Assembly: GCA_040954595.2 (NCBI GenBank) | Contig: CM082590.2 | Coordinates: forward strand, 1,612,001 to 1,676,000 | Source of the DNA: Balanoglossus misakiensis | Taxonomy: Eukaryota; Animalia; Hemichordata | Direction of reading: 5' to 3' | Length of the DNA stretch: 64,000 bases | Shown: positions 12,400 to 36,189 of the stretch, piece by piece | How positions within the stretch are numbered: the first letter of the stretch is position 1 | Layout of the letters: each line of letters begins with the position of its first letter | The notes under the pieces: model-generated | What the model was told of the DNA's origin: nothing | Seen by the model: the letters and a program-made list of their open reading frames with translations, nothing else | Databases searched by the model: none | Made by a program: the position numbers and the translations under genes

Positions 12400-12651
12400 C
12401 GAAAGCTCTCATAGACAACCATGTAATAGAAAAAATTAAAACTTTAATAACTTCATTAATATCAAAGCCACACCCACCAAAACCTTTTCAGTTCTTGCCA
12501 TATGATATCTGAACCTGTGTACTAAATTTGGTTGAAATCGGTTCAGCGGTTTTTGAGGTATCGGGTATACAGACAGACAGACACACACACACACACACAC
12601 ACACACACATCGCTAAACTATAAGCTCACGTGATTTTCACGTGAGCTAAAA
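12400..12651 (-). mobile_element. Short DINE-1/HINE-type Helentron-derived element
   Basis: Minus strand reads ttttAGCTCACGTGaaaatCACGTGAGCT (5' palindrome), then (tg)n(tctg)n microsatellite, then ctcaaaaaccgctgaaccgatttcaaccaaattt. This is the typical HINE layout. Confidence 0.7.
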
Positions 12652-12689
12652 ACGGCTACTTTTCGGAAATTGGAAAATGTTTTCTATAC

Positions 12690-14175
12690 TGTTTTTGGTT
12701 ATCGGACATTCGTGACCCCGAAAGCAACTATGATGTGTATCAGTTCAAATCGGTCCTTTTCGGAGCGGCATGCTCGCCGTTTATTCTTAACGCCGTGATC
12801 AAAACTCACCTGGAGAGTAACACTCCCACGCCTACAGCAGCTAACTTGAAGCGCAACATTTATGTCGACAACGTGATCGACGGCGCTGACTCTAATGAAA
12901 ACGCGGTTTCCTATTTCAATGAAGCTAATCGACTCATGCAGACATGTGGGTTCAAACTACGCGCTTGGTCGTCCAACAGTTCACAGATACGCGAACTCGC
13001 TGAACGGGACAATATCGCTGATCCCTCAACAGAGGTGTCGTGTCCTTACTCGGATTACGCTGGAAACCCGGAACCGACACGGTATCTTACACAAAGCACG
13101 ACGAGACACCGGTTCAAACCGCGCTAACGACAAAACGTGATGTTGTTAGTTCCGCGCCTAAATTGTTTGACCCACTTGGTTTTATCGCCCCAGTTCATGT
13201 TAGAGCGAAACTCTTTGTTCAGTTGCTATGGAAACGCGGTCTCCCTTGGGACGAGCCACTCGACGCTGATCTGATTTCACAGTGGACTCGAATCGCCAAT
13301 GATCTGAATACTGTACGGGACACTACAGTACCACGCCAATATTTCTCGACAAATCGAAGTGGCGATGACTACGAACTACACGTAGACGCCAGCACAACTG
13401 CGTACGGAGCAGTAATTTATCTTCGCGACCCACGAACGCGTGAGACTTCTATCGCCTATGTCGGACTTGACCTTACCACGGTTAGAATTGATGGCCGCCG
13501 TGATCGGTACTCGCCTGAGCAAATTCGTCGTAAACGCACTTTCCGACAAGATCAATATTACGGAACGATATCTCTGGTCGGACAGTCAGATCGTCCTTCA
13601 TTGGATCAACAGTGAGAAAAAACTACCCGTCTTTGTGAACAATCGTGTAAAGGAAATCAACGGTTTTCCTCACGTCTACTAATACTGCCCCACCGGTAAC
13701 AATCCCGCTGATCTGTTAACATGCGGAATCAGATCAGACGAACTCGCCAATTCTACTTTATGGTGGAATGGCCCTACTTGGCTGAAAGAATCAGGTGAAT
13801 GGCCGATTTGTGGCCTATATGATACGAGTAGCTCTGTACACCACGTCGCGGCAACCGACGACTTCATGGTTCGCGCTCACATAGAAACTAATCCGCAGAT
13901 CGATGATAGAATGCAAGATGTTGACCGCGCTCATCTTCAAACTACTGATAACGCTGACTCGCCTACCGCGGAAGACAATCCAGTTGCGGAAGTTGGCATC
14001 CAACGCGCCATGGACATTTCGCGCTTCAACTCATTATAGGACTATTAGACAAACTGTTACGAGTTACCGCGTACGTGCTACGTTTCATATTGCGTCTTAA
14101 ACGAACGGAAATCACACCGTCTGGAGAAATCACGCAGAGGAAATGCGATATGCGGAGCGGATGTGGATCAAGGTG
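12690..14175 (+). mobile_element. BEL/Pao LTR retrotransposon pol fragment (RT C-terminus + Pao RNase H/peptidase A17 region), frameshifted
   Basis: YQFKSVLFGAACSPFIL, NIYVDNV, LLGLRW, TKRDVVS..KLFDPLGFIAP..KLFVQLLW...[72 protein letters not shown]. Confidence 0.93.
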
Positions 14176-15257: not shown

Positions 15258-15508
15258 AGGGACTGTTCAGATTTTACTTTCAGGGTGGGGCCGGAGGATT
15301 TTTTATTTTCCTGGTGATTTTTTTTCCATGGACCCCAGTAAATTGTGGAGGAAATCTGTGGTACCCCTTAAATTTCCTAGAGTTTTTCCATGGTCCCCCA
15401 AAAAGGATTGTGATTTTTACGTCTATTCCTCCCTAATTGTTCTTGGAGAAAATGGGCGGTCCTTCCTGGTAATCCTCCGCCCCCGGAAGTAAATCCTGAA
15501 CAGTCGCA
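15258..15508. mobile_element. Short MITE, same family as 28478-30406
   Basis: AGGGACTGTTCAGATTTTACTT...AAGTAAATCCTGAACAGTC. The first ~110 bp align with 28478 onward. Confidence 0.75.
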
Positions 15509-16949
15509 GCTAGCACACTGGCTTTTCTGCCAGAGGAGCGACAACATCAACAAAATGCAGATACACAAGAAATAAGCAGTATATTCCACAAGTGAAGAAT
15601 CCCAGTTACAGACGTTACGAACAAACAACCTTCCAACAACAAAGCTGATCTCTGTTACCCAGTCGCCTTTGCAAAGGCATCTGGGTAATCAAGACTACAA
15701 CAAAGCAAGAAAAGGGTCAAGCGTCGTCAAAGAAAACGTAAAAAATCCAGCATGAGTGGTAAAAGTTATTGGTATAAAACGAATAGGGCCTTCTAGAAAT
15801 GACGTCTCAGACCCGCAAACGCCACCAGAACACAAAACACTTGCACAGAACAGTTTAAGCCGGTTGTTGTATGGAGCAGCAATAATATGCGGTTGGGCCG
15901 TCGTAGATTTTCGCTGGTGGTGAAAAAAAAACGCGATCAAGGCTCAATTTTATTCCGGATCACATGCGGTTACGGCCAGAAGAGGGCGTCAAAGTCTTCA
16001 AATTACCATGTGGTGGCGCACTTTTTTCGATTGGCTGGATTTCAATTTGTCCGTGGTAAATTTAATTTTTGCCGGTGACTGGCACGGAAACTCTTAGCAA
16101 GGTTGAGGTAGGGTGGAAAAATGCCCCATTGATTCATTTTGGCTATTTTAAAATATGCAGTTTCATGGGGATGGACTACTCGACTATCCCAGAGAGGGGG
16201 CACACGCGACAATAAGAGCGCCACCATTTGTTCAAATTGGAGGTGATCTTGTATTAAGTTGTAGACTTTGTCCGACATCGTCCGGTCATCACGGCTGAAA
16301 TACTCCCTTTGCGCATTGCTTACCCCGGTGTAGTCTACTCCACTAGAAATGAAGAAAGTAAATATAAGATTACCACCCGAAGTCTCAAACGTGAAAGCCA
16401 TTTCAGTGGCACTACAGTGGATAAACATTTAATCCGTGTATACGTCATGAAACTGAATCAGATAACTTTTATTCAAACCAAATAAATGAAACATATGAAG
16501 AGAGGCCTATCTTGATTAAACACATTAATCTGATATTTTATCATATTAGGTAACTCAATATTTTACACTTTACATATTTTACCAATAACACAATGCTTCA
16601 GCGAACCCATCAGGAGCAACTTTAGCAGAATACATTTCCTTGATTTTCGTTACATGGTCTTAATTCGGGAGACATTTCTCAATAAAATCAAAAGTCACAG
16701 TTCATATTTTTATAGAAACGGTCCAATTTGTCGAGTGCGCAGTGACAAGACATGCATCGTGCATAGACCACTACGCGGATAGGGTTTCTGCAATGCATGA
16801 TGGTATAATTTGCGTGCAACAGTGCATGGCTAACGCAAGCGCTCAGAACGCAAACTGTCCCACAACACCCTGCTTTATGCTATCCGCGAAGTGGTCCATG
16901 GTAGTGACAACAATTCCTATAGAGCAGTTAAAAAATAAACCGGCCGGCC

Positions 16950-17110
16950 GTAAATTCATTGGCTGTATTGTTTGTATTTATTTGATTTGAAAGGTCGCGT
17001 TTTCCCTGTTGCCTGCTATTAGTTCAGGGCCAGTTTCAGCAGTGCTCTATTGAGTACTTTCGTATCGATGGATTGAGCTCTCGTCCAATCAGAATGGCGG
17101 ATGGTAGCAT
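16950..17110 (+). promoter_or_regulatory. Candidate promoter (CCAAT boxes + YY1-like site) upstream of the exon array
   Basis: attggctg at about 16958 and ccaatcagAATGGCGG at about 17085-17100, in a locally CpG-rich region. Motif evidence only. Confidence 0.3.
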
Positions 17111-17528
17111 GATCTGACATATTGCGTATTGCAATAGGCCTTCCACAGATAGGTCAGAACGGAGAGGTCATTCCCCTCAGCTTCTTTGTCTTTTCTATTA
17201 TTTTTGACAAATGCGGATTGACGTTCCGTTTCTACATGGCCATAACTGATATTTATTTACGTTTCATAGCGTTAGCGCTTGCTATTCGTTTCGCAATTGT
17301 TTTCGTAGTACAAACAAATTGAAGAAGACGAAATATATTATCTATGTCCCTAATGATATAATCGGGGTTACATAATCGCACTTCCAAAGAACGCCGTGAC
17401 AGAATTCATCAGTTGGCGAGGCGCATTCTCCACCCGCACGCAAACGTTGCACTGCATACTTTGACTAATTAGTATGCGAAAGCAAGATTCTGATTGAGTA
17501 GTGACTAATTTGCATAATTGACGAGCAG

Positions 17529-17643
17529 GTGCTGCCTCGTTCTCGTACCGCTGAACGTTGCATTTGAAAAATCATTGCAGCTTCGACGTTCATCAAGCAT
17601 GGAGGTCCCGGTCGCCTCCATGCTTGATGATGTCGTTTCTCTG
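17529..17643 (+). ncRNA. Putative lncRNA exon 0 containing a pre-miRNA-like hairpin
   Basis: Branch-like gactaat, acceptor gcag|, donor |gtaagc. Perfect 16-bp stem tcatcaagcatggagg/cctccatgcttgatga with a 9-nt loop. The upstream intron resembles that of the B exons (ctaattagtatg..aaagcaag..tgatt..actaatt..tgcata). Confidence 0.55.
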
Positions 17644-18280
17644 GTAAGCATGGCATTTAATGTTATTTTACAAGTACATGTACACTTCTTCTAGCAAAAA
17701 CTGGTAGTGGTAGGGCGAGAGTGTCCTCCCAACATCGAAATTCTGACTTTGGGAAGCGTTACAGCGCCGAACAGTAAACTCACAGTCGCATGGAATTTAT
17801 TCGTTGTTTTACACTATGCGAGTAAATTGTACGTCGTTCGTGGCCTCGAGTCAGCTTTGTCAGCATCACCCTCTCTTTGTGGCTTAGTGACGCCCGGGGC
17901 CGTGGATCGAAAAAAGTACCAACACTAACCCTAACCGTTGAATATACCCTAACACTTGCATGTCAACAAACCATATTTATTGATAAAGAAATATGTATTT
18001 GTTTATAATGCCAATCATCAACAACGACAACAAACAAACAAACAAACAATAAAATCGCGGAGGGAGAGCCCCCTGTGGTAACACACTACAGTATAACTTT
18101 TAAGGCAAAGCAAGAGCGAATAAACTGACCAGAATTAGTTTTGTTATTGGGGAGATTTTTGGCACCATTGAGACTGTTATCAGCTACCAGTGTCAGCTAT
18201 GGCATAGCTGTTAACACGCAGCCCTGCCACGCAGAGCTACTATGACTGGTTACTAACTTCTATGTCTATTTGATTCACAG

Positions 18281-18355
18281 ATGCTGCCTGAAATTGTCTG
18301 CATTTCAACTCGGGATTCTCTTCCTCGTCCGAGGCGAGTTTAAGACCGCTCAATG
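18281..18355 (+). ncRNA. Putative lncRNA exon A1 (75 nt; 5' hairpin arm)
   Basis: TACTAAC branch point at 18251, tttgattcacag| acceptor, |gtaagc donor. Confidence 0.65.
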
Positions 18356-18915
18356 GTAAGCATGACTTGCTATATATTTGCTTTTATCGCGCGTTGCAAA
18401 CGAAACAATAGGAAGCAGTGTATGTCTACGAACGAATTTACACATTCCAGCTTTCAATACTTGTTTTTCCCCTTCGAATTCTGGCCTTGATTGCCTGTGA
18501 TATGGTCGTGATGACATGAATTAAATGGACAACTCACAAGTTCAAATCTTCACGTGGAGAAAAAAAATAAATTTGGATGCATTCCATATAGCGAAAATTA
18601 CTCCCATACCAATACACAGGGAGATACTGTAGCTTTGGCAGAACATGCGCTAGTCCAACACCATGCTTAACCAAACTGGCTAAGAGATATATTATCATAT
18701 TAGACGCATGAAGGAAAGTAATGTTGTTTAAAGTGACATAAAACAATACTTTAGGCCAGAAAGAAATATGTAACTCATGACACAAACAGGCTGGATATTT
18801 TTTCTGACCCTATATTATACCATGTTTTGCATATTTTCACTAATTAGTATGGCCCACATAATTCTAAAGCAAGGTTGATTGGTTACTAATTAATATGCAT
18901 ATATTTGATTCACAG

Positions 18916-18988
18916 TCTTAAACACAGCATTTCAACGTATGCCGGAGGAGGAAGAGAATACCTAGGCCTGATCCAAGACCGCTTTCCG
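18916..18988 (+). ncRNA. Putative lncRNA exon B1 (73 nt; 3' hairpin arm)
   Basis: tactaat branch, tttgattcacag| acceptor, |gtaagc donor. Complementary to A1. Confidence 0.65.
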
Positions 18989-19786
18989 GTAAGCACAACT
19001 TGCTGTATACATGCTCCATAGCTTGTTTGTAAAGGCTACCTTTTCCCATCAAATAGTGAAGTCGCCCTTTCAAAATTATGGTGGTGGCAAGCCACATCTG
19101 GTTATCATGGAGATTTGGACACCACTAATGATCATTTGAATATTTTCCACTTGGTAACCTTTATGTACCACTATCTTCAACAATTTCAGTCAACAAGATT
19201 TATATATCGCTGTATAGCAAGGCCGAACAAATATGACTGATTGATAGGGATTTATCTGAAAATGTGACAAAATCAACAAATACAGAATAATCAGTCACCA
19301 AACATGTATTATGTTTTATTCGAGGGAACCTGAGCGGGGTCCCATAAACCTGCCAACCCATGCTTGCCATGACTTTACAAATGTGTCCGTCATACTATGC
19401 AGAAAATTCTGGCTGCCTTAAATAGGTTTTCACTTAGCGCTAGGGGGTCAAATCTCATTGCATTCTGGGCAGAAAGTCCACAACCAACTGTAGTAAGAGA
19501 TAGAAGAAATGATATGTTTACTGTATTTCATGACTTCCTTTGGTCAAACATTTCTGTCTCTGATTTCCCTGTGATTTGGTTGACAGGTTTTTAAATCCTA
19601 TCTCTAAATCATGAAGTACATGTATCAGAATTGCATCCCCCCCCCCAAAAAAAAAAAAATCTAGTCACCCTTGGCGTTTAATATTAGCCATTGATCTGGG
19701 AAAGTTACAAAAATGTGTTGTCCAAGCACGTTGAAGGTAGTGAAGTGGTTTTTACACTAGCCATGAAGGCATTTTACTAAAATTAT

Positions 19787-21330
19787 TAGGTCCCGTTTGG
19801 TATATGTATTTATACCATGGGACCTTACAGGATCAGTTGCACCTGTATGTATGGATGTCTGTATGGATGTTTGTCTGTATGTCCATCAACATCAAACATT
19901 TGGAAACTACTGGCGTGTGACCTTGATATTTAGTGTGGAGATGCAGGCAGGGCAGTAGGTGGGAGTTTGTCTAAATGAAGTTGTCATTGCCAAAATATGC
20001 AAATGAGCTGGGAAAGTGTCAAACTTGTCAAAACTCAGGAACTCAAAAACTACTAGGTAAATTGCTTCAAAATTGAAAATTGATATGCATGTACCTTATG
20101 GTAACCTCACACAGCCCTTTGTGTTGTCAGCTTATGTGAATTTCCAATGTTTATGCATTTTTTGTCTGCACATTATCGGTAAAAAATCTATTTTTCTGGA
20201 ATTGATCAGCTGACTTGTTTGAAATTTAGTATGAAGCTTCACAGGTGATCTGAGTTACCATAGTTTTGATTAAAGTGTTGCAAAATTTGTGTATTTTAAT
20301 TTTGTAGCAATTTTTAGGTCCCATGGCATTTGGTTTGTGTATACATATATACGATTGGGACCTTATGGAATGACTTGCATCTGTATGTATGGATGAACAG
20401 ATGAAAACTGCTGCGCGCATCACTTCCATATTTAGTGTGTAGATGAAGGCGGGGCTGTAGATGGGATTTTGTTCAAACGAGGTTGCCATTGCCAAAAGTA
20501 TTACCTGTGAAAATGTGAAATTGGTCAAACGTCAGAAACTCAACAACCACTGGTCAGATTGATCTAAAAACGGTTATGTCAATGAACCCCATACAGTCCT
20601 GTATGCTTTGAGCTAATATTATGAATTTTCTAATGTTTATTAATTTTTTGTCTTTTCCCACATTATTGGTAAAAAAATCTTCACTTCTGAAAGCGATAGT
20701 CTGAATCCTTCGAAATTAAGTATGAAGCTTCCTATAGGTGGTCCAAGTTTCCATAGTTTTTGTTCAGATTCTTGTAAAATAGGCATATTTATAATTTTGA
20801 GCAATTTTGCCAATTTTGGTCAGAATGCTTTGCAATTTGGTAGGCATTTTCCAAGGGGTAACCCAAGTAAGACGTTGTAAAAATGGTTAAAACTTCGTGC
20901 TTGTCTTATTTGGGGATATTTATTGCAATCTTTGTCAAAAACTGTTTTCTCTGAAAACGTTCAAACCATTGTCTGATTGCTTTGAACTTTGGCAGGATTG
21001 TTCCTTGTAGTGATTGAAGTAAGATGGTGTAAAATTATAGTGACTTTTGCATATTTGTGTTTTTGCCACTTTTGAACAAATGTGTTTTTCTTTGAAACTG
21101 CTTTTTTCATGGCTTTGAAATATGGTAGGAAAATTCCTAGGGGTAACCCACATTTTTTTTCTGATTGCTTTAGAAGTTGGTTAACAATTTCATAACACAC
21201 TTACATGTATGTGCAGCTTTGATTGAATTCTGGTTGTCAATATTTAGGTATTTTGTTGTAAATTTCTTTGTTTTTGGATAGCGAATCGTTTAAACCAATT
21301 GTTCAGTTTCTTTGAAAGTTACTGTTAACA
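19787..21330 (+). repeat. Stacked DINE-1/HINE-like repeats (paralogous blocks at about 23207-25300, 26360-27560, 31590-32140, 33150-33900, 34310-34520)
   Basis: AGGTCCC..GGGACCT 5' palindrome followed by (tgta/tgga)n microsatellite, then degenerate gaaatttggta/cagattgcttt subrepeats. Confidence 0.65.
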
Positions 21331-21420
21331 AGGAGAGTTGGTACACCCAACTTAGACTTTTACAACCAACTTAGAGCTACTATGACTGGTTACTAACTTC
21401 TATTTCTATTTGATTCTCAG

Positions 21421-21496
21421 ATGCTGCCTGAGATTGTCTGCATTTCAACCTCAGGATTCTCTTCCTCGTCTGGGGCGAGTTTAAGACCGCTCAATG
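21421..21496 (+). ncRNA. Putative lncRNA exon A2 (76 nt)
   Basis: TACTAAC branch, tgattctcag| acceptor, |gtaagc donor. Paralog of A1 with a 1-nt length difference. Confidence 0.65.
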
Positions 21497-22063
21497 GTAA
21501 GCATGACTTGCTATAAAGTTGCCTTTATCGGGCGTTGCAACCAAAGCAATAGGAAGCAATGTATGTCTACGCACTAATTTACACATTCGAGTTATGAATA
21601 CTTCGAATTCTGGCCTCGATTGCCTGTGATATGATCGTGATGACATGAATTAAATGGTCAAGTTCAAATCTTCATGTGAAGCATAAATTAAATTTGGATG
21701 CATTTACTTAACCATATAGCTAGAAATTACTCCCATACCAATACACAGGGAGATACCGTAACTTTGGCTGAAAGTGTGCTAGGCCAATATTATGCTTAAT
21801 CAAACTGGCTTACAGAAATGTTATTACATTAGACACATGAAGGAAAGTAATGTTGTTTAGAGTGAAATAAAATGTAAATGGAGTTTTAAGATCGCTGTTA
21901 CAGATTTCTTTGATACGTATTCCACTGTTGTACATTGTCGCAACACAGTCTGACCCTACATTATACCATGTTTTGCATATTTTCACTAATTAGTATGGCC
22001 CACATAATTCTAAAGCAAAGTTGATTGGTTACTAATTAATATTTGCATATATTTGATTCACAG

Positions 22064-22136
22064 TCTTAAACACAGCATTTCAACGTATGCCGGAGGAGGA
22101 AGAGAATACCTAGGCCTGATCCAAGACCGCTTTCCG
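22064..22136 (+). ncRNA. Putative lncRNA exon B2 (73 nt)
   Basis: Identical to B1 by eye, with the same splice signals. Confidence 0.65.
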
Positions 22137-23986
22137 GTAAGCACAACTTGCTGTATACATGCTCCATAGCTTGTTTGTAAAGGCTACCTTTTCCCATGAA
22201 ATAGTGAAGTCACCCTTTCAAAATTATGGTGGTGGCAAGCCACAATCGGTTATCATGGAGAGTCCCATAAACTTACCAGCCCACGCTAGCCATGACTTTA
22301 CAAATGTTTCCCGTCATACTGTGCAGAAAATTCTGGCTGCCTTAAATAGGTTTTCACTTTGCGCTAGGGGTCAATTCACATTGCATTCTAGGCGAAAAGT
22401 CCACAACCCACTGTAGTAAGAGATAGAAGAAGTGATACATTTTTTGTATTTCATGCTTTGGTCAAACATGTCTGTCGCTGTAGTTAGCATATTAAACGCA
22501 TTAATATGAACTCCCATTTCTGTAACATGGCAAAAATCGGCCATCTTGAAATTGTCGACCATATGAGATTTTCATCACTCACTTAGGGTAGCTTTAAACG
22601 TATTTCAGGGGAGAATTGTATAGGCATGACTTGGGCTATAAATTTGATGAAATAGCTACATGCCTATTGTTCACAAGCAGCTGACTGTACTGAAAGACTG
22701 GAAGTGTTGTTTACTTGTAATTAGACCCTCTCATGTATATCTTGGGGATTGCTCGATCGCAATGTCTCTGCTGGTACAATGTCCTTTTAACATGTACAGT
22801 AATATGGTAGTAATTGTAAGTTTGTGTGCGGCATTTGTATTTATAATTATTTTGTAAATTTCTTCATTCTCAAATTGCTTTCCCAACTGCATTAAACTTT
22901 AAATTTTGGTATGATTTTGAGTAGAGTTTTTGTTTCAAAATTATTTTCGACCCTTTTGACATTTTTGGGTGATATGATTTTACATGGAAAATCTGATTTC
23001 CCTGTAATTCGGTTGACAGGATTATCACCATATCTCTAAATCATGAAGTACATGTATCAGAATTGCATCAGGCCCCCCCAAATTTTAGTCGCCTTTGGAA
23101 AGTAATATTAGCCATTGATCTGGGGAAGTTACAAAAATGTGTTGTCCAAGGGCGTTGAAGGTACAAGTGTTTTTACACTAGCTATGTAGGCATTTTATCA
23201 GAATTGTTAGGTCCCATTTGGTATTTGTATTTATGCCATGGGACCTTATGGGATCAGTTGCACCTGATGTATGGATGTTTATTTGTATGTCCGTCAACAT
23301 CAAACACTTGGAAACCTTGATATTTTGTGTGAAGATGCAGACAGGGGGGGGGGAGGGGGGTAGATGGGAGTTTGTCTAAATGAAGTTGTCATTGCCAAAA
23401 TATGCAAATTAACTGGGAAAGTGTCTAATTCGTAAACTCTGAAACTCGACAACTACAGGGCAAATTGCTTTCAAAATTGAAAATTGGTATGCATGTACCT
23501 AACGTTAACCTCACACAATTCTATATATTGTGAGCTAATAATGTGAATTTTTTATTTTTATGCATTTGTTTGTCTCTTTCCACATTATCGGGAAAAAATC
23601 TACTTTTCTGGAATTGATCAGCTGATTTGTTTGATAATTAGTATGAAGGTTCATAGGTGATCTGTGTTACCAACCTTAGTTTTGTTTAAATTGCTGCCAA
23701 AATTTGGGTATTTATAATTTTGGAGCAATTTTTAGGTCCCATTTGGTTTATGTGCATGTATATGATTGGGACCCGAGGAATCAGTTGCATTTGTATGTAT
23801 GAGTGAATGGATGAAAACCCCTGCGCGTATCACTTCCATATTTAGTGTGTAGATGCAGGTGGGGCTGTAGATGGGATTTTGTTCAAATGTAGTTGTCATT
23901 GCTGAAAGTATTACCTGTGAAAATGTGAAATTGGTCAAAAGTCAGAAACTCAACAACCACTGGTCAGATTGATCTGAAAACTGGTA

Positions 23987-24246
23987 CAGTGCAGCTTAGG
24001 AATAGCTTTCCAATTTGCTAACAACTTGCTGACACGGTGTTTATAATGAGTCAACACAGTGTTAGCATGTGCTACAAAGGTATTAAACCTTGGCGCACCA
24101 TATTGTTTTGGCACACCCCAGTTAAACACAAGCCCAATAGGTGCTAATTAGAGCGCCAATAGGGTGCTAACCCAGAGTTGACCCAGTGTTTAAACAGAGT
24201 TGACCCAGTGTTGGTGCAGTTTAAAAGCTATTCCCAAGCTGCACCG
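23987..24246. mobile_element. 260-bp Tc1/mariner-type MITE, TA target duplication, empty site visible in the paralog
   Basis: TA|CAGTGCAGCTTAGGAATAGCTTT...AAAGCTATTCCCAAGCTGCACCG|TA. The paralogous site at about 20575 has a single TA (cggtTAtgtcaatgaacc). Confidence 0.9.
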
Positions 24247-27200
24247 TATGTCAATGAACCCATACAGTTCTGTATGTTTTGAGCTAAAATTATGAATTTT
24301 CTAATGTTTATTAATTTTTTTTCTTTTTTCCACATTATTGGTAAAAAAAATCTTCACTTCTGAGAGCGATAGTCTGAATCCTTCGAAATTTAGTATGAGG
24401 TTATTATTATATATGCCAGAGTATGATAAGCTGTTGTACATTCATTTGGCGGCCATATTGGTTTTATTCAAAATATAAAGTGCAAATGTAAACATTTTTT
24501 TTTCAAAATTGTTCCAAATGTCATAGAAATAGTTTTGAATAAAAACACTAAAATAGCTTGTCTAATACCCAATATACAGCCCTAATATGGGTTTCTATGA
24601 ATACTGTTCAGCATATTGAATTTATGAAAATTATAAAAAAATCTGCCCATGTCAAATATTATTTCAAGATGGTTCTTCATGTACATGAAATATTTTTATA
24701 CTTTAAAATCATAGAAAAAGTCGTGTTTATTTCTTGATATTTGGCCCCCAAATTTTCAATATTAAGTTTATGCAAATTAGAAATATTTCCACAAGGTGGA
24801 TTTGGGTTCAATTAATCTAGACACCTCTCCAAAATATATTCTGAAGAAAAAAATTATGTTGCAATTTATGGTGGCTTAGGTGCCCAAATCTCATAGATTG
24901 ACTAGACTAGAAACCGTTGTCAGATTGCTTTAAACTTTGGCAGAAATGTTCCTTGTAGTGATTGAAGTAAGATGCTGTATAATTGTAGAGATTTTTGCAT
25001 ATTTGTGTTTTTGCAACTTTTGAACAAATGTGTTTTTCTTTGAAAATGCTTTTTTGATTGCTTTGAAATTTGGTAGGAATATTCCCAGGGGTATAACTAT
25101 TTTTTCTGATTGCTTTGGAAGTTAGTTTACAATTTCATAACACATGTACCTGTATGTGCAACTTTTATTAAATTCTGGTTTTTAATATTTAGGTAGTTTT
25201 GTTGTAAATTCTTTGTTTTTGGATAGCAAATCTTCTCTTGAACCAATTCTCCAGTTTCTTTGAAAGTTACTGTATGTTAACAAGGTGATGGTATACCCAA
25301 CTTAGATTGTGTTCACCACATGTTTACGTAACTTTAATATGCCAGCTGTTACACAGACCACCAGCTATTCTATTTTGAATTACCAGTGGCAGGTCACTCA
25401 AAATTTTTGAGCAGGTATTCCATGGTTCCTTGACATCACAAAATCGTCTCGAACTGGTCTCCCATTAGACACTTTTAGCCCCTTGATTAGCCAACGTCCA
25501 AAAACATTTAGGCATTTCAGAGATCATTATTCAGTTCGTCAGTCACTTGTAATGCGGGTTGAAAAACACACACTTGAATTACTTGCTATTTAAAGTCCTG
25601 CAAGCTGCTTAAAACTCGTGTGGACACTGATTTTATCATGTTGGGTATCTTCAAACTTTGATACCACCCCTAGCAATTTTTTATACTGACATGGTTTCTC
25701 GCCAGTGATTTCAACATCCTACTAGGAATACAACCTCTCCTCAACTTCATAAATAGAGGGCATGAAATTGAAGGTTTTTGAGAACACTATTTAAAATCAT
25801 CCCCATCAAGTCTATAAACGTCTTTGGACAGATTTGTATCCAGAGTAAAACGAAACATGCAATAAAGAGACTTTATGCAATAAAAACATGTTGACAATAA
25901 CTCCAAACAATAATTTGCTATGTACAACATGTCAATCGCTAATAGTAGGTATGGCCATAAGCATAAACCTGTTTGTTTTGCTATCTTCACTATTCATGTT
26001 ATCTGACTACATTAATACATTTGCAAGCATACTGTTTCAGACGTAGTGAAGTTGATAAACATTTACGAGTATATTTTTACCTGTTGAAACTTACGGAAGT
26101 TGATCAAAGACTGGACACTTCACATAGGATTTTTCATCCCCTCTGTAGATTGATAGTCTAACATAGCTTGCAATCTTTCTTTCAAAACTGCAGAGGCCTT
26201 TATAAAAAGTTGTTGGTCAGAATGAAAGCTTTGGGGGGGGGGGGTGTAGGATTTCCTACTTTTTAGGTTATTTTTTCTTTGCCCCCCAAAAGTTATGACA
26301 AAAAATTGATGGCCCCTCAGAATTTATACTCCCCCATCATACGCTATCCATATTTATATAAATATGTCAATAAACGCCATACTGTCCTGTAGGTTTGAGC
26401 TAATATTTTGAATTTTCTATTTCTTATTGTTTTGTCTCTTTCTGCATTATTGGTAAAACAAATCTTCATTTCTGAAAGCGATAGACCGACTCCTTCAAAA
26501 TATAGTATGAAGCTTCCTATAGGTGGTCCGAGTTACCATAGTTTTTGTTCAAATCGAAATTGTTGTAAAATTGGCATTTTTAATTTTGAACAATTTTTGC
26601 TCAGAATGCTTTGAAATTTGGTACGCAGATTCCTAGGGGGTAACCCAAGTAAGATGTAAAATATGCTTAAAATTGCGTGCTTGTGTTATTGGGGAATTTT
26701 TTTACAATTTTTATCAAAAACTGTTTTCTCTGAAAGCGCTTGTCAGGTTGCTTTGAACTCTTAGGTCCCATTTGGGACCTAGTGGAATCAGTTCCGTCTG
26801 TATGTATGTATGGATGCATGTCTGTATATCCGTCCACATCAAAAACTTGAAAACCGCTGCGTTTATCACCTCGATATTTCGTGTGTAGATGCATGCCCTG
26901 GCTGTATATGGGAGTTTCTTCAAATGAAGTTGTCATTGACAAAAATATGCAAATTAGATGGAAAAATATGAAATGGGTCAAAACTCAAACTGAACAACTA
27001 CTGGTCAGATTAATTTGGAAATTGGTATGCAGGTACCTTATGTCTACCTCAAACAGTCCTGTATGCTTTCAGCTAATATTGATTTTCTATTTTTGATGCA
27101 TTTGTTTTTATATTATTTTTTCATCATTATTGGTAAAAAATCTTCCTTTCTGAAAGTGATCTGCCTACTTCTTTGAAATTTAGTATGAAGCTTCTTATAG

Positions 27201-27952
27201 GTTGTCTGAGTAACCATGGTTTTGTTCAGATTATTGAAAAAAATTACATATTTATAATTTTGATAATTTTTTTGTCATCTTTCCCCTCTGAAACCGCTTG
27301 TCAGATTGCTTCGATTGTTTCGCTTTTTGGCAGGCATGTTCCTTGTAGTAATTTAAGTTAGGATTTTGAACAATGTTGGTGATATTTGCAAGTATGTGTT
27401 TTTGCCACTTTTGAAGAAATATTTAGCGAGTTTTTTTGCAAATTATTGTTTTTGGTTAGCAAATCTTCTAAACTAATGTCCAGTTGCATTGAAAGTTATT
27501 GTTTACAAGGTATTGCTACCCCCAGTCTGTTTACACTACATGTTTACATAACTTTAATAGGCCAGCTGTTACAGAGACCACTAGCTATTGAATGTCTGTC
27601 AGTCTGTCCCAGGGCTGACTGTAAGAAGTTGCTTGTCATGTGTGTTTCTACACACAAATTTTGGTCAAACATAATTTTTTATAGCACAGCTTTTAAGCCT
27701 GCCACGACACATGACAGTGTATTGGGCATGTTCTTTGTTATTTTTTTTTTTACATTTTCATATTCATATATGGATAGGTCATATCTGCTTGCCAATGTGC
27801 CCCCAAAAATTTCTTATGTAAAAATATCGATGGCCCCCAGGAAATCCTACAGCCACCTCAATTCCTTGGGAAGTATATTCTCAACACTCCCTTACATCAC
27901 GACATACAGGTTTATGATTTGTTACTAACTGCTATGCATATTTCATTCACAG

Positions 27953-28037
27953 ATGGAAGCCACGATTGTCACAATTTCAACTGGTCCAGGGTTTCTCGTT
28001 CTCCTGTGCGCTGAAGCTTGGTTAAGACTACTTTCTT
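27953..28037 (+). ncRNA. Putative lncRNA exon A3 (85 nt; diverged)
   Basis: TACTAAC branch, ttcattcacag| acceptor, |gtaagcatg donor. Keeps the atttcaac and ttaagac blocks. Confidence 0.6.
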
Positions 28038-28477
28038 GTAAGCATGAGTTCATCTATATTTGCTTTTTTTAGGGCATTATTGATTTCCTGTAATGTGATT
28101 ATGATGACGTGAATGAACTGGACATAAATTTAGAATTGGCAGAATTACTCATTACTGTAATTGTATATAGGTGCCTTGAATTTAATTATTTGTTTGCCGT
28201 CCATGGGTGGGTATGTTTTAGGTACAGTGTTATTGAGTCTGTGTGCATGTTTCTGTTGTTTACACATAAATATCATTTGTCACCTGATTGCCATGTAAGA
28301 GTATACCCATGTGGAGCTTCTTTACTCTGCAGTACTATTACTGATGTAAATGGAGTTTCAAAATTGCTGTTTTCACAGATTTCTCTGCTAAGTATTCCAT
28401 TGTTGTGTGTTGTCACAACACAGCACTGACTCTACATTATACCATGTTCTGCATTTTTGACTTATTAGTATGACATA

Positions 28478-30406
28478 AGGGACTGTCCAGAATTTACTTC
28501 CAGGGTGGGGATGGAGGATTTCTTATTTTCCTGGTGATTTTTTTTCCATGGCCCCCAAGTAAATTGTGCAGGAAATCTGTGCCCCCCCCCCCCTTAAATG
28601 CCCCCATGCCCCCCCCCCCCCAATATATACATGCATACTTACAGTCTCACAAGACAGGTTTATCACCCTTTGCAAGAACAATCAAGAGATCATTTACACA
28701 CTGATATAACCAATTTTACAGGGGACAGTTAAGTGGTCATAAAAATCATGTTTTTGCAGGGACTGCAAGTGGCACACTTTTGGGAAGCCTAGCAATGGGC
28801 AACTAAGATTGTAGTTTTCTGAAAATAAATTAATTATGACAAAACTTCCTACTATGTCCACTATATAAAACACTTCAGTTGTAAATAAGGCATGTCAAAA
28901 ACACTGCATCAGCACTTTTGCATCAGAGGTTTTTCAAAGGAAAATATACAGTTATGATCATTGTATCTAATTATCAAGCAGAGTGACATAGTATTTGATT
29001 TAGATTTTTCAATACAGCATTTTTCAATGGGTTATGTGTGACAGTTTCAGGAAATTGACAATAATCAATTGTTTAACAATTTCATATTTTACTTTCTCTT
29101 TTTTACAATCAACAATCAAGTATTTTTTTAAAAATTCAAATCAAACATGATATTGTGTCCTTTACAGTATTTTAAAAAGATTCTGCAAGTTTTGGCAAAA
29201 ACATAAATAAAATGTTTCTTGTTTTTCAATTGGTAAATTAAAAAATAATGTAGTCATGCACAATTTTACGAGGTTTTTTAAACCTTTTTTTAACAAGTTT
29301 GGCTGGCACAAAACAATATAATTTTATGTGTTTGTACTATAATCAAAACAATAGGTACATCACAGGCAAAACATTTGCTGTTACACATGAGCATACTCTG
29401 AGGAGTGGACCAAGAAAGTGCACTTGACACAGAGGACTAAAACATTCAGATAAAAATTGACAAAAGTTAAAGCCAATGTCTCTTTAAGTTTAATATTACC
29501 AGAAAGCAGGGTGCCATTAATATCTTTGAGATATCAATGAGACAGAAATTGCAAATTCGACTGTGTTGAGCCTCACAAAAATTGTAGACAAGCACGATTC
29601 AGACTGCAAACAAAAAGACATTTTAAAAATAAATATTGTGTATTATTTTAGTTTGTAGGAATTAGAATTCTTGCCCATATATTGTGCAATTTTGAACAAA
29701 CTAGAAAAGAAATCAACAAATACTTCGAGGTCAACAAATCTTAAGCGTTAACAAGAGTTACGGCTAGTAGGGCTTTAAATCTGGATTCTTACCCGAGTAC
29801 CATATTTAAGCAAGTAAGATGAATGTGATTTATTATGTCTTACTTTATTCACAGTCACTCTACAAAATACTTCAGGCGTACTATGCTTTATTCTATAAAA
29901 TGTAGAATTAATTTATCGCTAGCTGCTGGTATAGATAGATTGTCAAAAAAGTCTAATTCTTTAAATCTTGTCTGGACTTGAATTGAGCTCAGTTATCAAC
30001 AGTAACAACACTGACTGTTCACCGTACATATATGGTCTGTGCTGGCAGGCCAAATAAGTTGGACATCTTATTATGCTTCACAGAGTAGTTGAACAAGAAA
30101 CTGTAGTACATATACGAAATACACCACCGTAAAAATTACCCGAAATTCCAGCTTATGATGATTTAATAATACGCTTGTGGAGTTCATCTGTCATCCAGGT
30201 TGCCATGCTGGTTTGTTTCTTATAAATCAGTACTTCTGGGCAAATATTAAGTTTGTGAGGTTTTTTGTTACATGGCCCACCTAAAGGACTGTGATTTTTA
30301 TGTCTGGCCTCCCTCCCCCTAATTTTTCTTGGGGAAAATTGGTGACCCCCCTCCCCCTGAAAATCCTCCCCCCCCCCCCCCCTGGAAGTTTATTCTGGAT
30401 AGTCCT
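28478..30406. mobile_element. ~1.9-kb non-autonomous DNA transposon inserted in the A3-B3 intron
   Basis: TA|AGGGACTGTCCAGAATTTACTTCCAGGG...CCCTGGAAGTTTATTCTGGATAGTCCT|TA. The flanks rejoin into the intron seen before B1/B2 (attagtatg..gcaag..gattggttactaat). Confidence 0.82.
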
Positions 30407-30461
30407 TAATGCAAGTTTGTGATTGGTTACTAATAAACATGCACATATATTTGATTCACAG

Positions 30462-30614
30462 GCGGTGTCTTAAGTGGTCATCATTAGGCTGTGCAGGAGG
30501 GGGAGAAGACCTTGGATCCTATGTTGAAGACCCTTACGGCATGATTTGCTGTATACATGCTGTATACATAGCATTTCAACATGAAGTTCCAGGCCCCGTC
30601 AAGTACCTTTTCTG
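30462..30614 (+). ncRNA. Putative lncRNA exon B3 (diverged; original donor degraded, likely extends to |gtaacc at 30615)
   Basis: tactaat branch, tttgattcacag| acceptor. Contains gtcttaa and a purine-rich arm complementary to A3. Confidence 0.55.
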
Positions 30615-33600
30615 GTAACCACAACTTGTTGTATACCTGCTACATAGCCAGTTTATATGTTACTGTTTTTAATCAAATAGTTAATTCACCCTATCAATTT
30701 TATTGGGGCAGCAATTGGTTATCATGGACACCTCTAATAATCACTTGAATATTCTCCACTTGGTAACCTTTATGTAGTGCTATCCTCCACGATCAAAAAG
30801 AGGGTTGGTTATGACTATTTGAATAGGGGATCTAATTGTATTATTGGTATAGGGGAAGTATTTCACAAATGTTTGTGTACATTGATTTCTCATTTCAACT
30901 CATTGGAGATTTTTTTCCTTCATTTTGATGTAAAATATCAAATAATAGAATCCTTTCCAAATTATTTTTTCAAAAGTCACTCTTAATCAGAAAAATGTTT
31001 ATGAAGCTTCTTGGTAAATTTTGATATTTCACAAGCATTTTTCTACTATTGTTGAAGCTCGATCTCAAGAGGTGAGGTAAATTACTTTCTGAATTGGTCA
31101 GGTTTATTTGGTGGGTCTCCCATTCTTTTGATTAAATCTTTAAAACAGCTCACCAAGTTTCTGTTAATAGTTGACTGCTCAAAAGTTAAATTGTTGTCAT
31201 TTCCATTTTAGATAAATATTGTTTATTATGAATGTTAAGAACAAATATAGAGAGATAATAGGGTGTTTCAATGCTACGTTTTCAGTAAGGGGATAAAAAA
31301 AATATTCTGGAAAATGCTGAGTCAGCCATTTTCATGCACTACTAATGCTATAGTTTTCCTATGGTGAAATATCTGAACAACTCAATCAAAAAATAAAATA
31401 ATTGTGTGAGTGTTTTCTTTTTATCATTTAATGATACTTCCATTTCGGCACATATTGTGAAAATTTTAAGAAAATTACTATATTTCTACATTTTTCGAAA
31501 TATCTTCATGTAAGGCTATGACATGTGATAACCAGGCACTGCATCCACGTATTTAACCACCCTAAGATGGGATACAATACATTAAAATATGTTATGAAGC
31601 TTCCTATAGGTGATCTTAGTTAGTTTTGCACAAATTGTTGCCGGTTTTGCATATTGTTGGGGCAATTTTTGCAATTTTTATTGGAAAATCGTTTTTTCTG
31701 AAACCTTTTGTAGATTGCTTTGAATTTTGTAGGCATGTTCCTACTCTGGCTAGGGATATAAACCTAATTGAGCTAATATCATGAATTTTCTATTTTTTAT
31801 GCTTGTTTGGACTTTTCCACATTTTTTGCAAATAAACAATTAATGGAAGTGATAGCAAATTTCTTTAAACTTTAGCATGAAGCTTCCTATATTTGATCTA
31901 CGTGATTTTCGTAAATTGTTACAAAAAATTGCATACTTGTAAGTTTGGGAGATTTTTACCAATTTTGCTCAAAAATCATTTTCTCTGAAATCCCTCGTCA
32001 GATTGCTTTTAAATTTGTTTGGAACGTTCATAGGGGTTACCCAAGTAAGATGTTGTAAAATGTTAGTGAAATTTTCATATTTGTGTTCTTGGGGCAATTT
32101 TTGCAATTTTACATCAAAAATTGTATTCTTTGAAACTACTTGCTGATAATAGCTGGTAGCCGATCAAAACTCTGGTTGTACTCAACTTGTGACTGTCGAT
32201 AAATCTATTATTTTCAATAAAAATCTGCCGAGAAAATACAGACTGATTCAATAGGATTCTTATCTTAAATAGTATAGGCTGAAACTATTTCCATCATAAC
32301 TGTAGAAAGGTTCAAAACGTAATAATCTAATGTTGTAAGTTGCAATCTTGCCTTCCTATCTCCAGTGAAAAAATGATAAGACAACACCAATGGTATGAGT
32401 AATGATATAACTCGTATTTATTTCAAGTTAACTAAACTGTGATAAAAGCAGTGATAAAACTGGTTTCAATTTATAAGGTAATGCTTGGACCAGGAACAGA
32501 GACAAGTAATACTGACAGTAATGAAATGCATCCCATCCAGTGATTTCCCCATGCTTTTTGAGCAACTTGGCCTAAGTATAGTACCCTAATGTCTCTCAAT
32601 GTAAGCCACTTGCTTTCACAAAACAATCCCATTTTGCCACTTTGTACTGTTCTTTATATTTTGATCTGAATCTAAAAATACTGTTGAATCATCCAGTGTG
32701 AGTTAGCACTGTAATTAGCCAAAGTTATAAATCCACAGTTACCCAGCAAATTTGATATTGTATTGGTTTTGAACTATGTAATAGGTAAGAAAATTTTAAA
32801 ATTTCTACTGTTTCAACCCAGACTAGTTTATTTCTGAATAAACAGAGAAATGACAACGGATAGATTATTCCTGTGTAATAAAGACATATGCAGACACAAG
32901 AAAACGTCTGAACATAATCAGTACATTACTAAAACAGTGTAGGTACATTGTACTATAAACTCAGGAAGATTAGTGACTATTGTTTGCCAAAAATGGTCCC
33001 AAGTCATTTCTCAAGCAGAGCAGAATAGTAGCTTTGAGAAGCAAAGTGTGATGATTTAAAATGTGAAAAGACAACACCAATCTCTAGCTCTGCTCTTAGC
33101 ACTGCAAATGTTATCAGACAGGTAGATAGATGTTCAGTCATCATATGTCTGTCAACACTTTTCTTTTCTGAAATCACTGGTGCAAATGCTTTCAAATTTG
33201 GTATGCAGGTTTCTGGGGGTAGCGAAGTAATGCGTGTTCAAATTGTGCTGAATTCTGCATATTTGTAGTTTGAAACGAGTTTTTGCTGATTTTGGAAGAA
33301 GAAATAAGCTTGTAGGATTTCTTTGACTATGCAAGTTTCTAGGGATGACGCAAGTTGTTTCTTCAAAATGTGGTGAAATTTGCATATATTTTTTTTGGGG
33401 GGGGGGAATTTTCTCTGAAATTTAGTATGTATCTCCATGAGGTTTGTGACATAACCTGCAATTTTGTATTTTGGAGGCAGTTGCCTTTTTATTTGGACTA
33501 AAAATCATATTAGAATATGCATATCTGATTGTCATGTCCACAGGGGTGATATTATTTGTTAACATTATGACTGAATCTGTAAAGTTTTCATTATGATCTT

Positions 33601-34519
33601 TAAAATTGGTACGTATAATTGTTTCGATCTTTGTTGTGAATTGTCCCTGAGTGATCTTAGTCAATTTTTTAAAATTCTGCTGAATATTGCATTATTATTG
33701 TATGTCTGAGTCTGAAGAGTAGTCCTCTTCTCTGAAACCCCTTGACCTAAAGTCAGGTGTCAAATAGTATAATTTGCATATTTGTTGCATATGGGATATT
33801 GTTGCAGTTTTTTGAAATTCAAGATGGCTGCCAATCTTTGTTTTAACTCTTTGGAAAAACATTTATTTAAATACTTTTCTGAAAACAAGGTGGTGAACAT
33901 CACATTTTTTTCAAACAGTAATTGGTATAGCTATCATTGTTTCTGAAAATCTTAACTTGTAGGATTCTTTTTTAATCTCTAGCATCTGCAAAGACCACTA
34001 AAACAGCAACTCTATAAAAAGTCTTGTTGCTTAGTACTGACACAAGGTGGTAAAAAGATGTGCAGCTTTTGACTTCTTACAGGCTTACATTTTGTTAGTA
34101 ATATGAGTCCCTTTTTGGTATTGTGCTGGTTTTTTGTCAGGAGCTTGGGCCCCATTCCCTGGATTTTTTTTGCACACCTGGCTCTGAAAAGCTGCCACAC
34201 CTAGGCTTCTCAAATTTGTCACAGCTGTACTTGCCAACGAGTGTGCACCTTAAAATTCAAATCAGTTATTTGACCTGGCAGCCATATTCAGTTATTAATG
34301 CAAATTAGCTGGGACAATTTGAAATTGGTCAAAACTCAGAAACTCGACAACCACTGGTCAGATTGATTTGACAATTGGTATGCAAGTACCTTATGTCAAC
34401 CACATACAGTCCTATATTTTTTTGAACAAATAGTTTGAATATTCTATTTTTATGCATTTTTTCATCATTTTTGGCAAAAAGTCTACTTTTCTAGAATTGA
34501 TGAGTCGACTTCTTTGGGC

Positions 34520-34950: not shown

Positions 34951-35308
34951 TATTTTATTGCCTCTCTATGTGTGCGTCTGTCTGTCTGTACTCCTGTGTA
35001 GACTTCTTTTAGTGTAATCACTAAATGAGACCACAGTGTCCCTGACGCGATTTTCAGTGACCCCGGGGTAACCTTTGACCAGCTTTCCTATATCTTAGTA
35101 TTCACAGTAGAATACAGCCATGGCATACTAACCCTGGTAACCATGGGAACTGTTTGGGCCCCACCAATGGTGCTGGCAGCTTTAATTTTTACATGATTTC
35201 TTCTTATCATTGTTTTTTTAACGATGATGACTTGATCTAATTATTAAAATAATTTCATTCTTTTTTTACATTAGGTTCATTGGTAACACTGCTGCTGGAG
35301 GGAGTGTA

Positions 35309-35973
35309 ATATTTGTAACGCCGCCGCCACCTAATACTGTACTGGAGAGATGAACTTAATACTTGTAACGCCGCCGCCACCTAATACTGTACTGGAGAGA
35401 TGAACTTAATACTTGTAACGACGCCGCCACCTAATACTGTACTGGAGAGATGAACTTAATACTTGTAACGACGCCGCCACCTAATACTGTACTGGAGAAG
35501 TGAACTTAATACTTGTAACGACGCCGCCACCTAATACTGTACTGGAGAAGTGAACTTAATACTTGTAACGACGCCGCCACCTAATACTGTACTGGAGAAG
35601 TGAACTTAATACTTGTAACGACGCCGCCACCTAATACTGTACTGGAGAAGTGAACTTAATACTTGTAACGACGCCGCCACCTAATACTGTACTGGAGAAG
35701 TGAACTTAATACTTGTAACGACGCCGCCACCTTATACTGTACTGGAGGGATGAATTAATACTTGTAACGACGCCGCCACCTACTACTGTACTGGAGAAGT
35801 GAACTTAATACTTGTAACAACGCCGCCACCTAATACTGTACTGGAGGGATGAACTTAAAACTTGTAACGCCGCCGCCACCTAATACTGTACTGGAGAGAT
35901 GAACTTAATACTTGTAACGACGCCGCCACCTAATACTGTACTGGAGGGATGAACTTAAACTTGTAACGACGCC
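35309..35973 (+). repeat. 50-bp minisatellite, about 13 copies
   Basis: Unit acttgtaacgacgccgccacctaatactgtactggagaagtgaacttaat. Units are contiguous, with no variable spacers. Confidence 0.95.
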
Positions 35974-36189
35974 AGATGATGCTTCTGTGACCAGAGGGAC
36001 GAACAACGCCATGATTTGTTGATCTGATCTAATTAATAATATTCATTCTTTTTTTCCAATAGGTTCATTGGTTATATCATCGCCGGAGGGAGTCTAATCA
36101 ATATCTACAACAATGCCGCACCAGATAACAATATCATAACCAGAGGGATGCTGTCAATAGGTTAGGTTAATAAAAAAAATTAATCTGAG

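What the first reader, a model, noticed from the sequence alone, without database searches (positions are those of the whole stretch)
18281..30614. Splicing-assembled RNA hairpins: an array of complementary exon pairs whose apical stem-loop contains the exon junction
Seen: three A/B pairs of short exons with strong splice signals (A1 18281-18355 / B1 18916-18988; A2 21421-21496 / B2 22064-22136; A3 27953-28037 / B3 from 30462). Joining A1 to B1 gives GUUUAAGAC-cgcucaau-G|UCUUAAAC, a perfect 9-bp stem with an 8-nt loop whose 3' strand is created by the junction. Below it is a second stem: gg-AUUCUCUUCCUC-g-UCC-ga-GGC with GCC-GGA-g-GAGGAAGAGAAU-a-cc. The arms are 560 bp to 2.4 kb apart in DNA. 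A1 and A2 differ by 1 nt in length and the spliced chain reaches a stop in B2, which argues against coding. Inference: a multi-exon lncRNA making a series of splice-dependent hairpins, such as intron-split pri-miRNA, hpRNA/endo-siRNA precursors or ADAR substrates, so that splicing would gate small-RNA production. I know of no described animal family with this repeated layout.
Basis: partly seen in the sequence, partly recalled or inferred. Interest (0 to 1): 0.9.

Follow-up and report, generated by a model that had tools for sequence, protein, structure and literature searches.

The report
Intron-split RNA hairpin exon array
In an animal genome, three pairs of short exon-like units with intact splice signals are mutually complementary and would, if spliced, likely fold into RNA hairpins that may feed small-RNA production; no RNA data could test this, and a neutral inverted duplication is not excluded.

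Summary
The six units are at the stated coordinates. They are paralogous splice cassettes, and each B exon is largely the reverse complement of an A exon. Cognate pairs fold at z -3.5 to -4.0; single exons do not.

Two corrections. The 9-bp apical stem is not junction-made: the intron's last G gives the same strand in pre-mRNA, so splicing only shrinks the loop. Pair 3 has a different apical stem and a decayed donor.

New: an upstream paralogous unit E0 with its own 22-bp hairpin in a CpG-rich region, and C/D-box-like closed ends in the A-to-B introns.

Stability alone proves no selection: a simulated DNA inversion plus drift matches it. Signs of RNA-level selection are modest: G-U:A-C 11:2 in pair 3 only, invariant splice motifs, and 4 of 148 exon substitutions against 11% background (conversion not excluded). 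Coding is unlikely.

No genome, usable RNA run or ortholog was available; no look-alike in earlier findings. Best reading (0.4): a spliced noncoding hairpin cluster cut by RNase III, like plant intron-split miRNAs and fly hpRNA clusters. Ten literature searches found no animal arm-per-exon array.

The parts
15500..18500 (.). CpG-rich region, putative promoter / 5' end of the transcript (inferred)
   Evidence: CpG observed/expected 0.8-1.2 in 500-nt bins against 0-0.7 from 18500 to 32000; other CpG-rich bins exist elsewhere in the window
17529..17643 (+). E0: seventh, diverged paralogous unit, putative first exon, with a self-contained 22-bp hairpin (about 17584-17636; 16 perfect bp 17590-17630)
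   Evidence: B-flank HMM E 0.004 and 5e-4; alignment to B1 region 69.5 vs 33 +/- 5, 0 of 200 shuffles; donor ranks 9 of 3200 GT sites, acceptor 30 of 2657 AG sites; fold z -5.75, 0 of 200
18281..18355 (+). exon-like unit A1 (5' arm, pyrimidine-rich core)
18494..18821 (+). C/D-like closed stretch in intron A1-B1: box C 18508, CTGA 18804, 10-bp terminal stem (speculative)
   Evidence: 10 of 10 pairs here, 10 of 10 in the A3 intron, 8 of 10 in A2; no Rfam family
18916..18988 (+). exon-like unit B1 (3' arm, purine-rich core)
21421..21496 (+). exon-like unit A2 (tandem duplicate of A1, 4 substitutions + 1 indel)
21623..21967 (+). C/D-like stretch in intron A2-B2 (box C 21637, CTGA 21950; stem has two A.C mismatches)
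22064..22136 (+). exon-like unit B2 (identical to B1)
27953..28037 (+). exon-like unit A3 (49 of 76 aligned positions identical to A2)
28087..28443 (+). C/D-like stretch in intron A3-B3 (box C 28101, CTGA 28426)
30462..30538 (+). B3 core (3' arm pairing with A3 as a rod with 42 inter-exon pairs at p>0.8); original donor decayed
30539..30614 (+). B3 extension: donor relic plus partial B-like duplicate ending at a GTAACC donor (30615); B3 may be the terminal exon (AATAAA at 31392 and beyond)

Best explanation
This is likely a noncoding gene transcribed from a CpG-rich region near 17 kb and predicted to splice E0-A1-B1-A2-B2-A3-B3, so that each A/B pair would form an imperfect hairpin with a 19-27-bp core and the junction in an 8-14-nt loop, probably cut by Drosha/Dicer-type RNase III into small RNAs. 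Shown: the paralogous splice cassettes, the complementarity, the tandem duplication of the A/B pair. Inferred origin: a splice cassette was duplicated and the exon body inverted to make B, then the A/B pair was duplicated twice. Inferred role of splicing: it does not create the arms; it shortens the loop from 0.56-2.4 kb to a few bases, which in the plant case is needed for efficient dicing. Untested: transcription, splicing, cleavage, small-RNA products and targets.
For: Cognate folds z -3.5 to -4.0, 0 of 300 shuffles each. TACTAA, CAG and GTAA (13 positions) are invariant across the four independent lineages A1, A3, B1, B3, where 46 of 79 flank columns are invariant overall (partly circular, since the motifs were used to find the units). 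Pair 3 is strand-biased toward the splice strand: -60.8 kcal/mol with 10 G-U on plus, -42.3 with 1 on minus; G-U:A-C 11:2 under a symmetric alignment, p 0.011; 6-12 of 400 inversion-drift simulations are as asymmetric. Recent duplicate: 4 of 148 exon substitutions against 207 of 1905 background, p 3e-4, and none of the 4 breaks a predicted pair. Paired columns are unchanged between old copies in 25 of 39, against 47% expected, p 0.02. Between old copies exons diverged more than their flanks (45 of 142 vs 54 of 297, p 0.002) yet each cognate pair still folds. E0 has its own pre-miRNA-sized hairpin. Precedent: a non-spliceable intron-split plant miRNA gene gave almost no mature miRNA (PMC11706861, passages).
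Against: A perfect DNA inversion followed by drift gives duplexes as stable or more stable: 262-366 of 400 simulations for pairs 1 and 2, 158-294 of 400 for pair 3. Pairs 1 and 2 show no strand bias (G-U:A-C 6:8 and 7:7; pooled pairs 1 and 3 17:10, p 0.12). Two-sided compensatory changes are few: 2 of 39 and 0 of 42 mapped pairs, with 11 and 15 broken. Cross pairs also pair (A3 x B1 z -4.0). The intron flanks of B are as conserved as exon B (7 of 237), so gene conversion could explain the low divergence; exon A alone is not significant, p 0.08. The geometry is not a canonical animal pre-miRNA: pair 1 has large internal loops, pair 3 is an over-long rod. B3's donor has decayed and A1 differs from A2 by a 1-nt indel. 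No Rfam match at E<=1 over 10000-54000 beyond one unrelated weak hit.
Confidence: 0.4

Rival explanations
1. Neutral relic. One exon cassette was duplicated and its body inverted at DNA level, the pair was tandemly duplicated, and the arms have drifted. The exons may be noncoding or 5'UTR exons, or no longer spliced; the pairing has no function.
For: Reverse-complemented B aligns with A over most of its length. Inversion-plus-drift reproduces the energies. DNA-level scores are nearly star-like: A-A3 47-48.5, B1-B3 42, cognate 36-40.5, non-cognate 26.5-40.5. B3 donor decay and partial duplicates. Pairs 1 and 2 fold equally on both strands.
Against: Pair 3 G-U:A-C 11:2 and energy asymmetry p about 0.02-0.03; invariant splice motifs; exons and flanks diverged at unequal rates; all 4 recent substitutions keep pairing.
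Confidence: 0.27
2. Structured host transcript. The exon-exon helix brings the 5' and 3' splice sites of each A-B intron together, or acts after splicing as an RNase III processing signal. The product that matters is a roughly 300-330-nt C/D-ended intronic RNA or the folded lncRNA itself, not 22-nt RNAs.
For: All three A-to-B introns keep RTGATGA and CTGA 300, 317 and 329 nt apart. The 10-bp closing stem is intact in A1 and A3, with two positions changed on both sides (G-C to A-U, A-U to G-C). Stem energies of -8.4 and -7.6 are reached by about 3-5% of random 14-mer pairs. These two blocks are among the few parts of the A1 and A3 introns that still align. The apical helix is predicted in pre-mRNA and lies next to both splice sites. 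The architecture parallels S. pombe snR107/snoU14 and SNHG25 (PMC12508059, abstract and section 11).
Against: Post hoc pattern. A2 breaks both variable pairs. The interior is unalignable between A1 and A3, and the stretch before the D box is replaced in A1, so no conserved guide is evident. Fold z -2.05 and +0.19. No snoRNA family matches these stretches at E<=10.
Confidence: 0.2
3. The exons encode short peptides: ATG opens each A exon, giving 36-41-aa A|B products, or B exons are read in another frame. Complementarity is a by-product of origin.
For: A1, A2 and A3 all begin with ATG; A2 and A3 are open in that frame and differ by 9 nt. B1 and B3 share an open frame; 3.5% of neutral simulations do as well, for a frame picked after the fact. 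3 of the 4 A1/A2 substitutions would be synonymous in the A2 frame (read from the sequence).
Against: No third-position excess: mismatches by codon position 8/4/6 and 8/8/11; A2/A3 null p 0.28. A1 is frameshifted relative to A2. A-to-B splicing puts B in a frame with a stop. The longest ATG ORF is 41 aa in the full chain and 75 aa over all ordered exon subsets. No Pfam hit for six exon translations.
Confidence: 0.07
4. The units are pieces of a foldback or other transposable element, repeated elsewhere in the genome.
For: The locus is embedded in dispersed repeats and retroelement debris; genome-wide copy number could not be measured.
Against: Outside the array the exons have no match longer than 12-14 nt in the 64-kb window, whereas the intronic dispersed repeat has many copies. 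The shared ends are direct-orientation splice flanks, not terminal inverted repeats.
Confidence: 0.06

Closest known systems
Plant intron-split miRNAs (miR444 family, miRtop14; PMC11706861, passages read)
   Same: 5p and 3p arms in separate exons; intron in the loop; splicing turns a very long loop into a short one
   Different: Here an animal, three paralogous pairs in tandem plus a one-exon hairpin, each arm a separate 73-85-nt exon; no small RNA or target shown
Drosophila hpRNA clusters (hp-CG4068 with 20 tandem hairpins; D. pseudoobscura multiexonic transcript with 4 hpRNAs; PMC12697358 section 10, PMC10317233 passages)
   Same: Several imperfect hairpins in tandem in one spliced noncoding transcript; origin by inverted duplication; fast sequence turnover
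   Different: The passages read do not describe arms split into separate exons; stems here are shorter (19-27-bp cores); no target gene found in the window
Splice-junction RNase III hairpins of mixed snoRNA hosts (S. pombe snR107/snoU14, human SNHG25; PMC12508059 abstract and section 11)
   Same: Hairpin folds across an exon-exon junction; the removed intron may carry a C/D-ended RNA
   Different: No recognisable snoRNA in intron or exon; three repeated junction hairpins instead of one
Splice-site-overlapping miRNAs (e.g. miR-205; PMC4561498 passages) and exon-junction retro-miRs (PMC10486083 passages)
   Same: Hairpin and splice site coincide
   Different: In SO-miRNAs splicing destroys the hairpin, here it would tighten it; EJ-retro-miRs are annotated in intronless retrocopies, not at the parental split locus

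Membership tests
Intron-split miRNA (miR444-type) | Complementary arms in two exons with an intron in the loop | tested here: met
   (predicted exons, predicted fold)
Intron-split miRNA (miR444-type) | Junction is really spliced in vivo | not testable with these tools
   no RNA run shown to hold this organism
Intron-split miRNA (miR444-type) | Precise ~22-nt miRNA/miRNA* duplex with 2-nt 3' overhangs | not testable with these tools
   no small-RNA data
Canonical animal pri-miRNA | About 35-bp regular stem with simple loop, 60-70-nt pre-miRNA (criterion recalled) | tested here: inconclusive
   pair 1: 19-bp core with large internal loops; pair 3: longer rod; E0: 22-bp hairpin with weak basal stem
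Canonical animal pri-miRNA | Match to a known miRNA family | tested here: inconclusive
   no match in genomic DNA; the spliced form was not scanned against Rfam
hpRNA / endo-siRNA cluster | Imperfect inverted repeats in a noncoding transcript, often tandem | tested here: met
   (sequence level only)
hpRNA / endo-siRNA cluster | Dicer-dependent, often phased siRNAs and a complementary target | not testable with these tools
   no genome, no small-RNA data; no target in the window
Box C/D snoRNA or scaRNA host gene | Intronic C and D boxes closed by a terminal stem | tested here: inconclusive
   boxes in 3 of 3 introns, stem intact in 2 of 3, span 300-329 nt
Box C/D snoRNA or scaRNA host gene | Conserved antisense guide next to D or D' | tested here: inconclusive
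   sequence before box D is shared by A2 and A3 but replaced in A1; not compared with rRNA or snRNA
Protein-coding exon array | Shared open frame with synonymous-site bias | tested here: not met
Foldback / MITE transposon | Terminal inverted repeats and dispersed high copy number | tested here: inconclusive
   no TIRs and no other copies in the window; genome not held

The most novel reading that the evidence does not exclude
An animal polycistronic small-RNA gene in which every hairpin arm is its own exon. Splicing, and the choice of which A joins which B, decides which duplex is offered to RNase III, while each removed A-to-B intron may release a long C/D-ended RNA. It would be invisible to miRNA and hpRNA annotation that folds genomic windows.
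Probability: 0.25. Interest if true: 0.8.

Novelty: new variant of a known kind. Interest (0 to 1): 0.55.

Why it matters
Animal miRNA and hpRNA pipelines fold contiguous genomic DNA, so precursors whose arms are exons 0.5-2.4 kb apart would be missed. A verified case would carry the plant intron-split design into animals, in a repeated form where alternative splicing could swap arms (B1 pairs with A1 or A2). It would also show a simple birth route: duplicate a splice cassette and invert the exon. If neutral, it is still a clear example of inversion mimicking a selected RNA structure.

Tried and rejected
Whole genome: none held, so copy number, targets and orthologs are open. Sequencing runs: no RNA holder listed. 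8 of the 24 listed runs were laid, about 1 in 100 of each run read. They gave only partial matches at low-complexity tracts and none on the exons; even the multi-copy intronic repeat drew no full-length read, so these runs are not shown to hold this organism. This is no test either way. Metagenome pattern scan: 2 loci, both chance matches without exon or donor. Viral contigs: 0. Rfam: 1 weak hit at E<=1 in 10000-54000, and 2 and 5 weak hits at E<=10 in the two sub-regions, none near its gathering score and none on an exon. tRNA: none. Two protein searches meant to place the lineage found nothing. The lineage rests on a Pao peptidase (E 6e-28; that Pao elements are animal-specific is recalled), so only 'animal' is claimed. 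A suspected further exon at 16994-17103 was rejected (n.s.). A first null that evolved one modern pair into the other gave 0 of 300 in three tests. I discount it because it starts from an already imperfect pair; the fairer null does not separate. By-eye compensatory changes in the exon duplex did not survive alignment mapping. Earlier findings: five look-ups, one unrelated fungal note. Literature: ten searches found no animal array with arms in separate exons. The library lacks most subscription papers and I read no supplements. PMC3558349, 10.1101/2021.08.05.454923, 10.1101/125997 and PMC3753617 (passages) held nothing of that kind.


Full report
Observation. They share about 60 nt of acceptor flank and 40 nt of donor flank (profile E 1e-11 or better, though these six are the training set), so all six descend from one splice cassette. 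A1-B1 and A2-B2 are a tandem duplicate about 3.1 kb apart, 82-88% identical in long blocks. Unit 3 is older and has repeat insertions in its intron. The window is from an animal, judged from a Pao retrotransposon peptidase (taxonomic range recalled). No finer lineage is claimed.

Pairing. Joined cognate pairs fold at -50.5, -51.1 and -60.8 kcal/mol, z -4.0, -3.5 and -3.5, 0 of 300 shuffles each. Single exons, A|A and B|B do not (z -1.4 to +1.3; the 153-nt long form of B3 gives -1.8). Non-cognate joined pairs are weaker (A1|B3 -0.8, A2|B3 -0.4, A3|B1 -2.4), but B1|A2 gives -3.7. As bare duplexes the cross pairs still score z -2.1 to -4.0, against -3.9 to -5.1 for cognate pairs. In the whole chain A1, A2, B1 and B2 share partners about equally, while A3 pairs with B3 and E0 with itself. 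The junction lies in the apical loop region of all three pairs.

Correction on splice dependence. The 3' strand of the 9-bp stem exists in DNA, because the acceptor AG supplies the G. Unspliced A-intron-B is predicted to keep 36-39 inter-exon pairs. Splicing therefore shortens the loop and does not create the stem. That can still gate processing: in the tomato intron-split miRNA a non-spliceable gene gave almost no mature miRNA (PMC11706861, passages).

Origin. Reverse-complemented B aligns with A over most of the exon, while the flanks stay in direct orientation and A1 and B1 share two direct motifs of 10 and 9 nt. The simplest history (inference) is duplication of a partly palindromic exon cassette, inversion of the exon body, then duplication of the pair.

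Is the pairing selected? Stability cannot say. Starting from a perfect inversion and letting both arms drift to the observed divergence gives duplexes at least as stable in 158-366 of 400 runs. For selection: pair 3 is much more stable on the splice strand (6-12 of 400 runs as asymmetric; G-U:A-C 11:2, p 0.011). The recent duplicates differ at 4 of 148 exon positions against 207 of 1905 in introns (p 3e-4), and none of the four breaks a pair. Paired columns are more often unchanged between old copies (25 of 39, p 0.02). Exons diverged faster than their flanks between old copies (p 0.002) without losing cognate folding. Against: pairs 1 and 2 have no strand bias; B's intron flanks are as conserved as B (7 of 237), which conversion would explain; two-sided changes are 2 of 39 and 0 of 42. 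Only two independent versions of the duplex exist here, and several tests were run without correction. The evidence is suggestive, not conclusive.

Are they exons? TACTAA, CAG and GTAA are invariant across A1, A3, B1 and B3, while 46 of 79 flank columns are invariant overall. The units were partly found by these motifs, and the pattern alone is not enriched in the window. B3's first donor has lost its GT and the second is GTAACC, consistent with a terminal exon or with decay. No RNA evidence could be obtained.

Coding. Exon translations hit no Pfam family. The full chain's longest ATG ORF is 41 aa and the best over all ordered subsets is 75 aa. Mismatches are not enriched at third positions. 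All A exons start with ATG and B1/B3 share an open frame (uncorrected p 0.035), so small peptides are not fully excluded.

Additions beyond the finding. E0 (17529-17643) is a seventh, diverged cassette at the edge of a CpG-rich region. It carries a 22-bp hairpin, z -5.75, one of two perfect hairpins of 15 bp or more in bases 1-38000; the other lies in a tandem repeat. It folds equally on both strands, so it may be a recent inverted duplication. The three A-to-B introns each carry RTGATGA and CTGA 300-329 nt apart, with a 10-bp closing stem that is 10 of 10 paired in A1 and A3 (two double changes) and 8 of 10 in A2. The interior is poorly conserved and matches no Rfam family. This is a lead, found post hoc.

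Comparison. It works like plant intron-split miRNAs (PMC11706861 says this had been seen only in the miR444 family and in its own miRtop14). It also works like fly hpRNA clusters, which include a multiexonic transcript with four hairpins (PMC12697358 section 10). The junction hairpin plus possible intronic C/D RNA recalls S. pombe snR107/snoU14 and SNHG25 (PMC12508059). Membership in any of these needs RNA data and is untested. Ten searches of the held library gave no animal array with each arm in its own exon. Subscription papers and supplements were not seen.

Verdict. The feature is real and unusual at sequence level. Small-RNA hairpin cluster 0.40, neutral inversion relic 0.27, structured or C/D-host transcript 0.20, peptides 0.07, transposon 0.06. 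New variant of a known kind; interest 0.55.

Noticed in passing
window 17619-17632 vs 41500-41513, 44975-44988, 45171-45184: The 3' arm of the E0 hairpin shares 14 nt exactly with three units of the 192-bp satellite, and 11-13 nt with many more (E 0.021). Possibly chance; of interest if E0 makes a small RNA.
   Followed up: partly
window 35275-35973 and 36063-36160 (+): Two paralogous exon-like stretches with polypyrimidine acceptors (alignment 117 vs 30 in shuffles); the first runs into a 50-bp tandem repeat. Weak similarity to the B1 region (6 and 20 of 300 shuffles). No Pfam hit for the second.
   Followed up: partly
window 30884-30919 (+): A-exon-like relic downstream of B3, without splice flanks; 4 of 3000 shuffles score as high, but it was picked from 72 comparisons.
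   Followed up: partly
window 5601-5909 (-): Open stretch that reads like a first coding exon with a signal peptide; weak Atlas lead to ANF_receptor (score 0.91, 10% of members); no Pfam or homolog hit.
   Followed up: partly
window 38360-45505 and 54399-64000: Large satellites: 192-bp unit (about 37 copies) and a 142/83-bp higher-order array that begins at the end of a gag/protease-like stretch (52811-54438).
   Followed up: no
window 619-2951 (-), 3815-4649 (-), 12645-14039 (+): Mobile-element debris: YqaJ-domain fragment (E 4e-11), RT fragments, Pao peptidase/RT fragments.
   Followed up: partly
window 8557-9088 and 9466-10068: A nested inverted-repeat element of about 530 bp and a 69-bp tandem repeat with internal palindromes.
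   Followed up: no
window 19559-21356, 22992-27420, 31582-32136, 34298-34516, 4897-5364, 49669-50143: A dispersed noncoding repeat family, 70-80% identical between copies, fills most of the long introns of the array.
   Followed up: no
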